A stretch of 64,000 bases of DNA, taken from assembly GCA_013239625.1 (NCBI GenBank), contig MU053810.1, positions 6,606,122-6,670,121 of the forward strand, given 5' to 3'. Below the pieces are notes generated by a model. That model had not been told where the DNA came from. It searched no databases and was given only the letters and a program-made list of their open reading frames with translations. The stretch comes from Lama guanicoe. Lineage: Eukaryota. Positions 12,341-64,000 of this stretch are shown piece by piece; position 1 is the stretch's first letter, and each line of letters starts with the position of its first letter. A program made the position numbers and the translations under genes.

Positions 12341-12530
12341 AGGGGGGAGGGTGTAGCTCAGTGATAGAGCATGTGCTTAGTATGCACGAGGTCCTGGGTT
12401 CCATCCCTAGCACCTCCATTAAAATAAATCAGCAAAGCTAATTACCTCACCCACTCCCACCAAAAATAAATGAATAAGGCAGCAGACACACTATCTACAT
12501 TAGGCAGTGAAAAGATTCTAAGAAAAAAAA
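12341..12530 (+). mobile_element. Vic-1-type camelid tRNA-derived SINE, inserted in a MIR
   Basis: ggggggagggtgtagctcagtgatagagcatgtgcttagtatgcacgaggtcctgggttccatccctagcacctcc (A/B boxes); TSD aaaaatgagatg at 12327-12338 and 12527-12538. Confidence 0.9.
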
Positions 12531-13944
12531 ATGAGATGCTGTTTTCACCCCTTTTTACATACAAGGAAACCAAATTTTAGAAAATCTGAGAAGCCTGCTC
12601 ATTGGCACAGCTAGTGCCTGGCAGTATGTGACTCTGAGCCCCACAGTCAGCTTCCCCATCCTGTTCCACTTCACCCCACTACCAATAAAAGCTGGATCCC
12701 ACACCCATTACAGTTCCTGTAAATGCTTAACAAATAGAATAAATGCTGTGGCCATTTTTGCTCAGCATTTTTGTAAGGTAAAATAGTCTCAGAATTTACA
12801 CGTCTGTTATTCACTTTGAAAAGACTAGTCACTCCTGTTTTCCTCTCAGCCCTGAATGACCTGGATGCCACCAGAGACTGCCCTGTGACATCAAAGAAAA
12901 AATGAAATATTTTGCCAACAACACCAGGTAAATTTCATCTTCTCCATTCAGCCTACTCATTTTGCATTGATTTGATCAGTGCCCTCAAAACGCAGCAGCC
13001 AAAATCCTACAGTGTTCGGGTGGGGAACAGTCCATTCCGGAGAAGCCGGATTACCCAGATGGAGCAGAGAAATCTGTTACCGGCCTGCAAATATCAACAG
13101 CGCATAATTAGCAGCTGCTAAAATAATAGAAGTCAATTGAACAAAAATATGGTATGCTCAGCACTGATTTATTAAATACCTTATGTTTCCAAACATAGCT
13201 TTCCACGGGGGCTGAAAAGCCTTTGCAGGGCATTACAGCATGTAACCCTGGGTACCAGACACAGAGAATGGACAGGGGTGGGGTCTTTTTGGTTTGTTTT
13301 TGGGGTTTTTTGGGGACAAACTTCTAAAAGGAGCTATTACTATGTCCCACAAACAGGCCCAGACATGACTGTATTACATCTGCCTGATGAAAAAATACAT
13401 TTGTCAAAAGCAACCTTAAAGTGGGCTGCCACTCTCAAAGGCGTCAGTCGCCGTCTCCCTGGGAGACAGCAAAACCCTGCATTTATCTAAATTATCTCAG
13501 TAATATGACAGAGTGATTGCTCACTAATGGTCAGTAACAGTTTTCTTTGTCATTTTCCTAGCCATTACCTCCTCCGAATGAACTCCAGAATAAACGGCTC
13601 GCCGTCGTGACCAGAATGCTAATTTCCCCCTTGTATTTGTGGCTGGTTCTGTAAAACATCTGTGCTTGGTTCTGACATTTCTGACATTTCCATTTTGGGA
13701 AAAAGAATACCTGCCCTTGAAAGCCTGATGAACGCAGAGGTACTTCACCTGCAAAGAAAAACAATTCCATTTGCGTGTTCCCGGGGTTGTGAATTCTGTT
13801 GTTCATCTGATAAAGCATCTAGGGGCTGCTGGAGGTATTTGCAGGGGTGGGCTTCGCCTCCCACAGTTTTATACAGCTATGGCTCGGATTTCCAGATTTC
13901 AGGTCATCCTCCTTTGGAGAGACCTGGTGATGCAGTAAAACCTA

Positions 13945-14603
13945 TTTTTTTTTGCCAGTTTGTTTTATGGACGCCCAGATGCTCAGGCCTTGACCGCGTA
14001 CTTCGGCAGTGGGTACAGCCTTTCCTTTCGCTGCTGCTTCTTGGTCTTCAGCTTCTCTTCGAGCTTGCTGAGCCGGCGGCGCAGATACAGGGGTTTGTAC
14101 TTCTTGCCCTTATGGAACTTCCTGATTTAGCGACGCACAGCTGGGAAAGCTCCACCTTCGGGTCCTCCAGTTGTTACAGCAGCTCCTCCTTCTTCTTGCC
14201 CCAAAGGTCTCGAGCCTTCATCTTGGCCTGCGCGCAATAAGGGATCTGGATCCAACAGCCGGCGAGGCCACCTCCCCCTCCGCCGCTCACCAAGGCCTCC
14301 ACCGGTGTCACGAGCGCGCTGGAGGCCCAGCACTGAAGTGCCTGTGACGGGACAACCCAGGCCACGCAGGCGCATCCTCGCCCAGGCCTGCTGCCCGCGA
14401 GGCCGCCAGCCCCACTGAGCAGACGGGAAAACGAAAGCCCTGGCAGCACGCGAGCGCCTCTCCCAGCCCAGCCCGGCGAGGGGAGAAGGCGGGAGGGCGG
14501 CTGGGACGGCAGAGGGGACCTCAGGGCTCGCCCCTCGCTGCCCACCCCAGCCCCGGAGGCCCACAGCGCGCGGATGGTGCCCGATTCCCCGGCCCTCACC
14601 ATC
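13945..14603 (-). pseudogene. RPL35: Semi-processed retropseudogene of 60S ribosomal protein L35 (uL29), retaining intron 1
   Basis: Minus strand reads ATG|GTGAGG...372 nt...CAG|GCC AAG ATG AAG GCT CGA GAC ([33 protein letters not shown]...[12 protein letters not shown]...[22 protein letters not shown]). Premature TAA at 14174-14176, native TGA at 13983-13985, CATAAA signal, poly(A) at 13945-13953, TSD aaaaccta at 13937-13944 and 14604-14611. Confidence 0.95.
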
Positions 14604-15789
14604 AAAACCTAATGCTCTTGAGAGTAGATTCAGTGGATATTCTGCTGCAGCCCTGTCCTGTCTGAGTTGTAGGGGTGACTACTGTTTGTTGTGTAAGTTT
14701 TTCTATCCAATAAATCTAGATCAGACTTCAAAAAATTAAAAATCCAAGCCAAAGGGAGAATGGTAAGCAAGCAGAACTTTTTTCTTTCCGTAAATAGCAC
14801 GGAGGACTTTTTTTTTTTTTTCCAAAAAGATTTTTAAAGGTCAAAGAACTGACCGTACTAGGGAAAGTAGGTCATTGTGGTTCAAATGGCCACATCACTG
14901 GACAATTCAGTAACAGCATCCAAAGCAGCCTGGACTCAGAAGGGTGCAGCAGCCTCTACAGGCAGGACAAGCTGGGTCTGCTGTCCCCACTTCTGTGCAG
15001 AAGTGTCAGCTCATAAAAGTCGCAATGAAGTGAAGGAAGACACTGTGGAAATAAATATCTGGGGATTTTACCACCCATGCATTTAGATGCTAAGAAAGTG
15101 ATTCAGCAGAATCCTTTGCAGCCCAGCCCCATGGCTTCCCTGGTTGTTTTGACCACCTGTTTATTCACTTAAAAAGCAACCTTGTAACCAATATTTTCTG
15201 GGACAGTCTTGACTTGGAAAGATTCGTCCCATATCTTGGACATATGCTAGAGAAACTATGGTTACTACATGTGCACTAGCCCAGTATGTGTTCAAACCCA
15301 GACTCACTCCCTGTCCTACCTGGTCCAGGTGGCCAGTCACCCTCACTCCCCCGAGGACACCGATTTCCAACCACCCATTAAAACTGGCAGGCTCCATGCC
15401 CCATGGGCATCCCAAGGATATTTTATCCAGAATGACAAACTCAGCTTGTGTTATGGCCTATTAAGTCTCACAAATCAGCAAACTACTGTTCTTAACTATA
15501 TGCACCTTTAGGTTAATCTGAGCACACTGTCTTATCTTCTCAGAACAATACGAATCCAACTCTAAAATCATTAATGGATAATGTAGACCTTTAATGAAGT
15601 CACAGGAAGGGGCTCACACTGTGATTTACACAGCAATACTTCCTACACTGACCTCTCTTAATTACCTCTCTTCTTTCCCCAAGTTTCCCCATAATGGCAG
15701 CTGCTGCCACATCTCCCCGACTCCCTCTCCGTTCTTACCATCCTGCAGCTGCCCTCCAGTCAGATTAGCTCTCAGTCTCCTGCCCTGCT

Positions 15790-35000: not shown

Positions 35001-35165
35001 GTGGCCCTGAAGACACAAATTGGCCTTGGTCACTGGCCTTGAAAACACACACTAGACTTGGGTCATTGGCAGAGATGGCAACACCGGGCCTGTGTCACTG
35101 GACCTGAAGACACACACTTGGCATTGGTCACTGGCCCTGAAGACACACACTTGGCCTGTGTCACC
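35001..35165. repeat. Minisatellite, ~33-bp unit, ~5 degenerate copies
   Basis: Unit approximately tggccctgaagacacacacttggccttggtcac. Confidence 0.85.
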
Positions 35166-40324: not shown

Positions 40325-40517
40325 GGGGGGGAGGGTATAGCTCAGTGGTAGAGCACAAGCTTAGCTTGCACAAGGTCCTGGGTTCAATCCCCAGTGCCTC
40401 CATAAAAATAAGTAAATAAACATACAGGAACCATACCACAATAAAGGTGTGAAAATAAATAAGCAAAAACCTATTTACCTCCCCCCATGAAAGAGAGTAA
40501 AATTAAAAAAAAAAAAA
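40325..40517 (+). mobile_element. Vic-1-type SINE
   Basis: gggggggagggtatagctcagtggtagagcacaagcttagcttgcacaaggtcctgggttcaatccccagtgcctcc, A-rich tail, flanked by cttgca repeats. Confidence 0.92.
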
Positions 40518-61732: not shown

Positions 61733-64000
61733 AAAAAAATACCACAACCATGAACATTGTTACAGTTAGAGGCCCTCTTGGTTCTCCACAATGACACCGA
61801 GCATGCTCACAAGAGGTTCCCATTGTTTAGTCTTAAACAACCATCTTTAAAAGAAGAAAAAAAAAAACAAACCTCAGCACACTACCATTAACTTGTTTTA
61901 ATGTTTCTTCACAAATGGTGAAAAATACTAAAGTACAGACAAGGAATAATCATAATGTTGTGGCCAACATTATAAATATGGAATTATAAATTTAAAAATT
62001 TTCTGGTTTAAAAAATAAATCTGGTATTAATGCAGCTCTGTGGGGTCTGCATCTAGTAGGGCCGGTCTCTGCGCTCCTGGCAGTGCTCGCCTTTATCCAT
62101 TTTTCCAGGTCCTCCACGCCCGCCTCTTCTTCCTCCCATTTGTTCCATTAAAGGTCCAGTGGGTCCCCCAGGGCCACCTCGTCTTCCTCCACCGAAGCCA
62201 CCATGGAAGCCACCTGTCTCCACCACGGCCACCTCTGAACATTCCACCAGGACCACCACGGTCCATGAGGCCACCTCTTCTTCCCCGCATGCCACTAGGG
62301 CCACCTCTGCCACGGTCACCACCCGGAGGTGGGAAGGGTGGTGGAAGGACACCTTAAGGCTTTGCCTCACACTGGTTGCACTCTGTTCTCCAGGCAAAGT
62401 TCTGGTTTCCACATCCCTTACTGGGGCACTGCCAGGCTCCAGCTCGGTGCCGGATGTTTCCTCCTCCAGATGGATTCCCTCGAGAACCATGGGGCCCTCT
62501 TGGTGGGAAGCCTCCTCTGTCTCCTCCACGGCCTCCATGTGACCTGTGGGTCCCTCAGGACCACCTGGGCCCCCTGGACCTCCCCGGAGTGGCGGCGGCA
62601 TCATCCCTCTGCCCTCCCAGGGTGGCGTTCCACCTCGCGTGCTGTTCCTTGGAGGCTTCTTTTTGCTCCCTTGAAAATCTTTCCCGTCAAACCACTCCAC
62701 GGCAGCCTTGGCGGTAGGAGGGTCTTCACAGGACACTGTAGCATCACCTTTGGACTTTCCTGTTTCCTTGTCCAAGTAGATGTGGATCATGGGTTGTCCC
62801 CTCCTCTTGTTCATCTTCACAACTCCACACTGCTTAAAGAAGTCTGCCAAGTCATCTAGAGTCACATTGTCATTTAATCCGTGCACATAAATTACACTGT
62901 GGTCATAGTCTTCGTCTGGATCTACAGGTGGGTCTAAATCAAGATCTTGTCCTTCATGCATGGGTCCACCAGGCTTATTGAAGCCACCTTGCTCTCCAGT
63001 GCTGCCCATTCCACTGTGTCCTCCTCCCTGCCCACCTCTGCTCATGCCTCCACAATCAAATGCCCCTCTTCCCCTGCCCCAGTTATCAGGGCCACTCATG
63101 CTCCGGTTCTCTCCTGGTCTGGAAAGTCCTCCAGACTCCTGCCTGTAAGCACTCATGCTACTGGGGTGGTCCTGTCGGAATGAACTTTGCTGCCCATAGC
63201 TGCTGCTCTGTTGACTATATTGACTTGGTGCCTGGCTGTAGGATCCAGTCTGGGGTGGGGGGAACTAGTGGGCAGCTGCTGCCCATAGCTGCTTTGTTGA
63301 CCATAGCTACTCTGCTGTCCATAGCTGCTCAGCTGCCCATAGATGTTCTGCTGGGAGCAACTGCTCTGATCATAACTAGTCGAATGTGTAGAGGAATAGC
63401 TGGTAGGAGGATAGGATGGCAGTGGGCTGACTGGCTGCATGGGGTAGCTCCCAGGCACGTGGGGGTAGCTGTAGTTATTCTGCCCATATCCCAGGCTGGA
63501 CTGGTTGTAACCCCCTGTGCTAGATTGAGGTTGATCAGTCTCAGCAGGTTTGTTACCATCCTGTGGTCTTGTAGGTGCGGTGGCTGCTGGCTGCTGCCCT
63601 TAGGCTGTGTAAGCAGGCGGAGTGCCATGCGCAGACTGAGCTGCATAGGAGGCCTGGGTGGTAGTGACCGTAGCAGTGGTGGTATCATAAGCACCAGTGC
63701 CGTGCCCCTGGACAGGCTGACTTGGGGGCAGTTGGAGTAGGAGGCAGTCCATAAGAAGTTGCATAGGCGGACTGCCCACGGGTCGCGGTGGCCTGAGCCT
63801 GGCTATAGCTAACATCAGTGGGCTGTCCGTAGGTTCCATAACTTTGCTGCCCATATGCCTGGGTGGTCTGTGCATATCCTTGAGTGGGCTGGGCGGTGTA
63901 AGCACCGTAGCCCTGCTGGGCTGCAGCCTGGCTGTAGGTACTATAATCCGTGGATGCCATTTTCTCTCCTTCCTTCTCATTCTCTCAACATCTGTCTCCC
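61733..64000 (-). pseudogene. EWSR1: Processed pseudogene of EWS RNA-binding protein 1 (CDS remnant 63960-62053, plus UTRs; runs off the window end)
   Basis: Intronless MASTDYSTYSQAAAQQGY... SYGQ domain, RRM IYVHGLNDNVTLDDLADFFKQCGVVKMNK...KGDATVS...AKAAVEWFDGKDFQG, RGG boxes, C-terminal RRDRPY*; multiple frameshifts and small deletions; 3'UTR homology follows. Confidence 0.97.

What the first reader, a model, noticed from the sequence alone, without database searches (positions are those of the whole stretch)
13945..14603. Semi-processed RPL35 retrocopy retaining intron 1
Seen: on the minus strand the ATG (14602-14600) is immediately followed by GTGAGG, 372 nt of GC-rich sequence, then GCGCAG|GCCAAG, where RPL35 codon 2 starts (14227). 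The downstream CDS is uninterrupted, followed by a short UTR and poly(A), and the 8-bp repeat aaaaccta brackets the entire unit including the intron. Known (from memory): mammalian RPL35 exon 1 ends at the ATG, and the last intron lies near K74|G75, which is joined here. Inference: reverse transcription of a polyadenylated but partially spliced mRNA, a rare retrocopy class that records splicing order or intron retention.
Basis: partly seen in the sequence, partly recalled or inferred. Interest (0 to 1): 0.75.

Follow-up and report, generated by a model that had tools for sequence, protein, structure and literature searches.

The report
Dead RPL35 retrocopy keeping intron 1
This is a broken, poly(A)-tailed copy of the ribosomal protein gene RPL35 that still carries a GC-rich segment matching the gene's first intron, likely because it was reverse-transcribed from an incompletely spliced RNA; that is a known, uncommon kind of pseudogene, and its one extra oddity is that the intron's CpG sites have barely decayed.

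Summary
The headline holds; one detail is wrong. ATG, GT donor, 372 nt, AG acceptor, RPL35 codon 2, poly(A) and an 8-bp flanking repeat are at the stated places. RNA-type libraries from two studies each hold a contig joining exon 2 to the 372-nt segment at 91.5% identity, with parent-type exon alleles, and a fully spliced copy joins ATG directly to codon 2. But the CDS is not uninterrupted: it has a stop at codon 19, a 100-nt frameshifting gap (codons 36-69) and a 24-nt deletion. The gap removes the exon 2/3 junction, so the fate of intron 2 is unknowable, and a reverse-transcriptase jump between two RPL35 RNAs is not excluded. The insertion is shared by five organism labels and a relative about 3% diverged. 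This is a semi-processed pseudogene, a described class. New here: the retained intron is the only strong CpG island in the 64 kb, and 0 (at most 1) of 14-15 testable CpGs decayed despite 7% non-CpG transitions. That suggests a transplanted, germline-unmethylated island, with methylation and promoter activity untested.

The parts
14604..14611 (.). Target-site duplication, copy at the 5' end of the retrocopy (aaaaccta on +)
   Evidence: the junction is crossed by an orthologous contig of a relative (record 14, 14545-14742)
14600..14603 (-). Remnant of exon 1: one base plus the ATG; 5'UTR lost (5' truncation)
   Evidence: the parent-type contig (record 13) has 22 further letters past 14602 that do not lie on the window flank
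14228..14599 (-). Retained RPL35 intron 1 (GT...AG, 372 nt, 73% GC, 35 CpG, o/e 0.72)
   Evidence: 14213-14394 and 14504-14602 align to a parent-type contig with 24 substitutions in 281 nt (X17); 27 in 316 nt in X19
14395..14503 (-). Middle of the intron: 109 nt where both parent-type contigs have 135 unaligned letters (net 26 nt shorter here; parent-type intron about 398 nt)
   Evidence: table 5
14126..14227 (-). Exon 2 remnant, codons 2-35, with a premature TAA at codon 19 (14176-14174)
14125..14126 (-). 100-nt gap (codon 36 to first base of codon 69), frameshifting; removes the exon 2/3 junction; no microhomology apparent
   Evidence: loose end of X17 at 14125 shows mRNA continuing differently
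13983..14125 (-). Codons 69-123 and stop, contiguous across K74|G75 (14109|14108), with an in-frame 24-nt deletion at a 4-nt microhomology (14083-14080)
   Evidence: alignment; loose ends of X17 at 14080 and 14083
13954..13982 (-). 3'UTR with a decayed polyadenylation-signal-like motif near 13968-13963
   Evidence: other processed copies in X1, X2 and X19 also stop matching at 13952-13953 (table 7)
13945..13953 (-). Poly(A) tail remnant, A9
13937..13944 (.). Target-site duplication, copy at the 3' end

Best explanation
This is a dead retrocopy of RPL35 that carries a segment matching intron 1 of the gene, likely made when L1 reverse transcriptase copied one polyadenylated RPL35 RNA whose last intron was likely already spliced out but whose first intron was not. 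Shown: anatomy, intron identity, broken CDS, presence in several related species. Inferred steps: target-primed reverse transcription began at the poly(A) tail, ran through exons 4-2 and intron 1, and stopped 1 nt past the ATG, losing the 5'UTR; an 8-bp target-site duplication formed; later the copy gained a stop, a 100-nt and a 24-nt deletion, and a net 26-nt difference in the intron. It makes no RPL35 protein. Because intron 1 is likely part of the parent's promoter CpG island, the copy would have planted an orphan CpG island; its near-absent CpG decay suggests that it stayed unmethylated in the germline of the window's lineage (inferred, not measured).
For:: X17 record 13 (438 nt) and X19 record 19 (451 nt), from two studies, each join exon 2 to the segment at 91.5% identity and share exon alleles (14201, 14203, 14219) with the abundant X17 mRNA contigs. 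They are distinct from the orthologous retrocopy contigs in the same runs (records 14 and 20). Record 19 has depth 360 against 2.6-4.5 for the four locus-type contigs of that run. A processed copy in X1, X2 and X19 joins ATG directly to codon 2 (loose end at 14200), so the segment is exactly what splicing removes. Poly(A) lies where other processed copies end; the TSD abuts both ends; 16 of 24 listed runs (5 organism labels, 7 studies) hold 0.88-0.94 of the words of a stretch that is 37% insertion. CpG: 14 shared CpGs and 0 decayed in the 176 nt where differences are fully listed, against 10 transitions in 142 non-CpG sites; P 0.007-0.0001, or 0.035-0.0004 counting one ambiguous site, under an assumed 5-10x CpG rate. 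First introns tend to be spliced after their internal neighbour (PMC5766209, passage).
Against: Only one spliced junction survives, and its intron position is recalled, not shown: no genomic parent contig appeared in the DNA runs X1 and X2 (filtered, 14 and 11 of 30 bins covered). The 100-nt gap has no microhomology and could be a template jump. The TSD is atypical: on the sense strand it does not start A-rich, and the TTTT/A-like endonuclease motif (recalled) sits at its far end. No empty site was seen. The relative's orthologue differs from the window by 16/271 against 13/470 in X19 flanks (Fisher p 0.047), and most of those changes were below the listing threshold, so CpG decay in that lineage is not excluded. 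Contig depth is one figure per contig and cannot measure intron retention; DNA can be present in RNA runs.
Confidence: 0.77

Rival explanations
1. Template jump within RPL35: reverse transcription started on a fully spliced mRNA and jumped at the 100-nt gap to an unspliced or nascent RPL35 RNA. The copy would then be a same-gene chimera and would not record the splicing state of one molecule.
For: The 100-nt gap at 14126|14125 shows no microhomology, unlike the 24-nt deletion (loose ends), and it separates the unspliced 5' half from the spliced 3' half. L1 template switching (U6 chimeras) is established knowledge (recalled); an earlier unchecked note reports one in this genome.
Against: The copy has other deletions (24 nt; net 26 nt in the intron), so later deletion is a common fate here. 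A jump that skips 100 nt of the same gene needs an extra rare event.
Confidence: 0.14
2. DNA-level duplication of part of the parent gene, with later loss of the downstream introns.
For: It would explain a retained intron and CpG island without any unusual RNA.
Against: Poly(A) at the mRNA 3' end, an 8-bp repeat at both junctions, homology ending at the ATG (record 13), and contiguity across K74|G75.
Confidence: 0.03
3. Chimera with an unrelated GC-rich RNA or a later insertion between the ATG and codon 2.
For: 109 nt in the middle do not align to the parent-type contigs at 80%.
Against: About 263 of 372 nt (14228-14394 and 14504-14599) fall in pieces that align at about 91% to a contig contiguous with RPL35 exon 2 in X17, with a matching contig in X19; GT-AG ends sit exactly at the ATG|codon 2 junction.
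Confidence: 0.02
4. A fully processed copy regained intron 1 by gene conversion with the parent gene.
For: None found.
Against: Only 4 nt lie between the TSD and the donor, too little homology on the 5' side. The exon 2 remnant is diverged to a similar degree as the intron, so the intron does not look younger.
Confidence: 0.01
5. The copy encodes a new 141-aa protein, because the retained intron is 124 codons long and stop-free in frame with the ATG.
For: The ORF runs 14602-14177.
Against: 24% of 5000 dinucleotide shuffles are also stop-free. The parent-type intron is about 398 nt, not a multiple of 3, with two more 1-nt indels. No homologue of the intron-derived part was found (lengths 77-279 aa only).
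Confidence: 0.02

Closest known systems
Semi-processed (partially processed) pseudogenes or retrocopies (definition of Zhang et al. as quoted in PMC2850357; review PMC4151081; schematic in PMC3449122; passages read)
   Same: Poly(A), flanking direct repeats, at least one junction spliced (recalled position) and one parental intron kept.
   Different: Only the specific locus; heavily deleted; lacks 5'UTR and upstream promoter.
Rodent preproinsulin I (Ins1), a semi-processed retrogene keeping the first intron (PMC4151081, PMC3449122, passages)
   Same: First intron retained, a downstream intron lost.
   Different: Ins1 kept upstream regulatory sequence and is functional; this copy starts at the ATG and its CDS is broken.
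Ovine RPSAP8 and RPSAP9, semi-processed ribosomal-protein pseudogenes (PMC2850357, passages)
   Same: Ribosomal protein parent, artiodactyl host, retained intron sequence.
   Different: They keep part of intron 4 with snoRNA SNORA62. Here a whole first intron is kept, and Rfam finds no snoRNA (2 matches in the window, both tRNA-like, elsewhere).
PPP1R26P1 in RB1, a retrocopy-borne CpG island that became a differentially methylated promoter (PMC3839921, abstract and passages); parental promoter inheritance in about 3% of expressed retrocopies (PMC4772013, passage)
   Same: A truncated retrocopy whose CpG-rich sequence resists the expected decay.
   Different: That island is exon-derived, with measured methylation and transcription. 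Here it is intron-derived, no host gene was identified, and neither methylation nor a TSS was measured.

Membership tests
L1-mediated processed pseudogene | Sequence matches the transcribed part of the parent and ends at its boundaries | tested here: met
   homology from the ATG to 13954, none in the flanks
L1-mediated processed pseudogene | 3' poly(A) tail at the mRNA end | tested here: met
   A9 at 13953-13945; other processed copies stop matching at the same place
L1-mediated processed pseudogene | Target-site duplication of 5-20 nt | tested here: met
   8 of 8 nt at both junctions
L1-mediated processed pseudogene | L1 endonuclease consensus at the first nick (recalled 5'-TTTT/AA-3') | tested here: inconclusive
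   Not met for the 8-bp repeat as it stands; a longer repeat partly absorbed into the tail would give a near-consensus nick (gapless comparison)
L1-mediated processed pseudogene | Empty site with one repeat copy in an outgroup | not testable with these tools
   No outgroup run was offered; no joint skipping the unit in the 4 runs laid; no whole genome held
Semi-processed pseudogene | Retained segment is a real intron of the parent | tested here: met
   records 13 and 19; ATG joined to codon 2 in a processed copy
Semi-processed pseudogene | At least one other parental intron precisely removed | tested here: inconclusive
   Contiguous across K74|G75 and matched by X17 mRNA contigs, but the intron position is recalled; parent genomic DNA was not obtained
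Semi-processed pseudogene | Made from a single partly spliced RNA | tested here: inconclusive
   The 100-nt gap could be a template jump; the orthologue was not covered there
Functional retrogene | Intact parental ORF | tested here: not met
   stop at codon 19, frameshift, 124 nt missing
Orphan CpG-island promoter | CpG-island composition | tested here: met
   GC 0.73, o/e 0.72, 35 CpG; at most 16 CpG in any of 673 other 372-nt windows
Orphan CpG-island promoter | Unmethylated DNA, H3K4me3 or transcription start | not testable with these tools
   Only indirect: CpG retention and one X17 contig (record 14)

The most novel reading that the evidence does not exclude
Intron retention let this retrocopy carry the downstream half of the RPL35 promoter CpG island to a new site. 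There it has stayed unmethylated in the germline since before the split from a relative 3% diverged and now works as an orphan promoter, possibly firing antisense out of the 5' junction or being parent-of-origin methylated like PPP1R26P1 in RB1. Semi-processed first-intron retrocopies of housekeeping genes would then be a general, overlooked source of new CpG-island promoters.
Probability: 0.15. Interest if true: 0.62.

Novelty: new member of a known kind. Interest (0 to 1): 0.36.

Why it matters
As a pseudogene it matters little: the class has been known since rodent Ins1. It is a fossil of a polyadenylated, intron-1-containing RPL35 RNA reaching the germline L1 machinery, consistent with late removal of first introns. 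It can mislead annotation (it looks like a spliced two-exon gene, or a 141-aa ORF) and mapping of RPL35 intron reads. If the CpG retention reflects a live unmethylated island, it is a clean natural test of whether a first intron alone can export CpG-island chromatin and promoter activity to a new locus.

Tried and rejected
Whole-genome search: no genome held. Parent gene as host DNA in microbial collections: 21 of 21 metagenome matches were chance, limited to the motif; 0 in genome contigs and 0 in viral contigs. Protein evidence for a read-through isoform: 1 hit among 784 candidates, to the RPL35 part only; 0 of 2136 for the intron-derived part; 0 in PDB for the 141-aa ORF. The N-terminal extension of PDB chain 8a3d_b aligns only loosely in low-complexity sequence; not counted. 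Cryptic splicing as the cause of the 100-nt gap: rejected, because the mRNA letters before the 3' breakpoint do not end in AG (loose end at 14125). Expression of the retrocopy: X19 tiles both flanks at depth 2.6-4.5, like background; X17 shares of 0.15 and uncovered bins are no evidence. Host gene: a rough splice scan and Pfam on 8 chosen frames (of 81 ORFs listed) found none, only an RRM in the EWSR1-like copy; this was not exhaustive. snoRNA in the intron: none at gathering threshold. Gene structure from papers: PMC155282 not held; searches gave nothing usable by their listings. The repeat finder did not show the 8-bp repeat among its 20 largest of 28 families; it was located by direct search.

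Full report
Observation. On the minus strand the unit reads: 8-bp repeat (14611-14604), one base, ATG (14602-14600), GT donor at 14599, 372 nt at 73% GC, AG acceptor at 14229-14228, RPL35 codon 2 at 14227, stop at 13985-13983, a 29-nt UTR, A9 (13953-13945) and the same 8-bp repeat (13944-13937). The repeat abuts both ends; chance is 2.6e-5 per register, about 1% over +-10 nt on both sides. The identity as RPL35/uL29 is shown by PDB matches: residues 2-35 at E about 3e-8 to 1e-7 and residues 70-123 at E about 1e-12.

Codon 19 is TAA. After codon 35 the sequence jumps to codon 69 in another frame, and eight more codons are missing later; 124 nt are absent in all, 100 + 24. mRNA-derived loose ends in run X17 show the parent continuing at both places. 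The 24-nt deletion has a 4-nt microhomology; the 100-nt gap has none apparent and no AG before its 3' breakpoint. The 100-nt gap covers the place of the exon 2/3 junction (position recalled), so the state of intron 2 cannot be read. Only one junction, K74|G75 at 14109|14108, is seen joined, and that the parent has an intron there is recalled, not shown by any search.

Is the 372-nt segment intron 1? No whole genome was held, so I laid public contigs on 13650-14900: 4 of the 24 runs listed. Two RNA-type runs from different studies each hold a contig that joins exon 2 to the segment. X17 record 13 aligns 14213-14394 (13 substitutions, 2 gaps) and 14504-14602 (11), then has 22 more letters that do not lie on the window's flank (likely 5'UTR; the letters were not printed). 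X19 record 19 aligns 14161-14394 (17, 2 gaps) and 14504-14585 (10). Both are 8.5% diverged, share the same two 1-nt indels, and have 135 letters where the window has 109, so the parent-type intron is about 398 nt. Both carry the allele of the abundant X17 mRNA contigs at 14219, and record 19 also at 14201 and 14203. They are not the orthologous retrocopy, which appears separately: X17 record 14 crosses the 5' junction (14545-14742, 7 substitutions) and X19 record 20 spans 14166-14436 without those indels. In X19 the parent-type contig has depth 360 against 2.6-4.5 for the four locus-type contigs; the tool warns that contig depth is a poor measure, and this contig includes 67 nt of exon. In X17 the intron contig (14.7) is thousands of times below the summed exon depth, so intron-bearing RNA is a small minority there. 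A loose end at 14200 in X1, X2 and X19 belongs to a fully processed copy in which ATG joins codon 2 directly, so the segment is exactly what splicing removes. The DNA runs X1 and X2 covered only 14 and 11 of 30 bins and showed no parent contig; the tool filters human-like records, so that is no evidence.

Distribution and age. 16 of 24 listed runs, 5 organism labels and 7 studies, hold 0.88-0.94 of the sampled words of 13400-15200, of which the insertion is 37%, so these close species share it. The organism of X17 and X19 differs by 20 of 668 nt (3.0%) in flank and junction contigs and also has the insertion, so it predates that split. Divergence from the parent-type intron (8.5%) is nearly three times the flank figure. 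That the genome is a camelid is not shown by my calls: names are coded, the tRNA-like element at 12347-12418 resembles a camelid SINE (recalled), and earlier unchecked notes say camelid. No empty site was seen or could be sought in an outgroup.

Mechanism. Most likely (0.77), L1 target-primed reverse transcription copied one polyadenylated RNA with the last intron spliced and intron 1 retained, truncating 1 nt past the ATG; the stop and deletions came later. First introns tend to be removed after their internal neighbour (PMC5766209, passages), which fits. The main rival (0.14) is a template jump at the 100-nt gap from a spliced to an unspliced RPL35 RNA; then the copy would say nothing about one molecule's splicing order. 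DNA duplication, a foreign chimera and gene conversion are each unlikely (see rivals). The TSD is atypical for L1: it is not A-rich at its sense-strand start, while a TTTT/A-like motif (consensus recalled) lies at its far end; a longer repeat partly absorbed by the tail would fit. The intron is 124 codons and stop-free, giving a 141-aa ORF, but 24% of shuffles are stop-free, the parent-type length is not a multiple of 3, and no homologue was found. I treat it as chance.

An added feature. The intron has 35 CpGs (o/e 0.72). The window average is 0.26, no other of 673 windows of 372 nt has more than 16 CpGs, and the EWSR1-like processed copy at 62053-63984 has o/e 0.29, though its age and starting CpG content are unknown. 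In the 176 nt of intron where one search lists all differences (its tallies leave no A>G or T>C unlisted for X17 or X19), 14 CpGs are shared with the parent-type contig and none has decayed in the window copy; one double change at 14539-14540 is ambiguous. Non-CpG sites show 10 transitions in 142. Assuming half the divergence on this branch and a 5-10x CpG rate (assumptions, recalled), P is 0.007-0.0001, or 0.035-0.0004 with the ambiguous site. Against this: the relative's orthologue is 16/271 diverged against 13/470 in X19 flanks (p 0.047), and most of its private changes fell under the 10% listing threshold, so decay in that lineage is possible; at least one CpG change is listed in the exon (14203). 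CpG- and GC-rich inserts can set up island chromatin by sequence alone (PMC4204011, abstract), so retention need not mean selection or function. X17 record 14 ends at an A-rich plus-strand tract (14730-14742) and is the only flank cover in that run, whose loose ends carry a cDNA adaptor (recalled). That could be internal priming on an antisense RNA leaving the island, or DNA; it is a weak hint only.

Comparison with what is known. Semi-processed pseudogenes are a described class: Ins1 and the TMF1 insertion in CYBB (PMC4151081, passages), ovine RPSAP8/9, called 'very rarely reported' (PMC2850357, passages), and a textbook schematic with intron 1 kept (PMC3449122, passages). Casola and Betran list partially processed retrogenes (PMC5470649, passages), and a long-read survey tolerated up to two retained introns (bioRxiv 2020.06.07.139212, passages). 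About 3% of expressed retrocopies inherit a parental promoter (PMC4772013, passages). PPP1R26P1 shows a retrocopy island becoming an imprinted promoter (PMC3839921, abstract and passages). PMC1459141 (passages) gave no RPL35 exon structure. No supplements were read. Four RPL35-specific searches (listings only) showed no report of this locus; the library lacks most subscription papers. Earlier scan notes had nothing on this sequence, but 3 of the 8 notes shown (of 101 that fit) describe other partly spliced retrocopies in the same genome (unchecked), so the class may not be very rare here.

Verdict. A real semi-processed RPL35 retropseudogene, a new member of a known kind, decayed and non-coding. 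Interest 0.36, raised a little by the CpG retention; the promoter or imprint reading has probability about 0.15.

Noticed in passing
window 14228-14599: The retained intron is the only strong CpG island in the 64 kb and shows 0 (at most 1) CpG decay in 14-15 testable sites despite 7% non-CpG transitions.
   Followed up: partly
window 14545-14742: In cDNA-type run X17 the only flank cover is one contig running from inside the island across the 5' junction and ending at an A-rich plus-strand tract; possibly an antisense RNA, possibly DNA.
   Followed up: partly
window 13937-13944 and 14604-14619: The target-site duplication has the endonuclease-like TTTT/A motif (recalled) at the far end; it may be the remnant of a 10- or 16-bp duplication partly absorbed into the poly(A) tail.
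   Followed up: partly
window 13748-13711 (-): A very strong splice-acceptor-like site (99.9th percentile, rough table) about 200 nt past the poly(A), followed after 38 nt by a weak donor; it could accept splicing from the retrocopy's donor or be a host micro-exon.
   Followed up: no
window 62053-63984 (-): Processed, frameshifted EWSR1-like retrocopy (name recalled from the translation; RRM_1 hit E 2e-8), CpG o/e 0.29.
   Followed up: partly
window 12347-12418 and 40331-40402 (+): tRNA-like matches; the first has an A-rich tail and looks like a tRNA-derived camelid SINE rather than a tRNA gene (recalled).
   Followed up: no
records 1, 18, 22 (X1, X19, X2): Another, older RPL35 processed copy shared by the window's species group and the relative has 198 letters where a canonical CDS would have 189.
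   Followed up: no
window 35002-35164: Tandem array of about 33-nt units, 5 copies, 71% matches.
   Followed up: no
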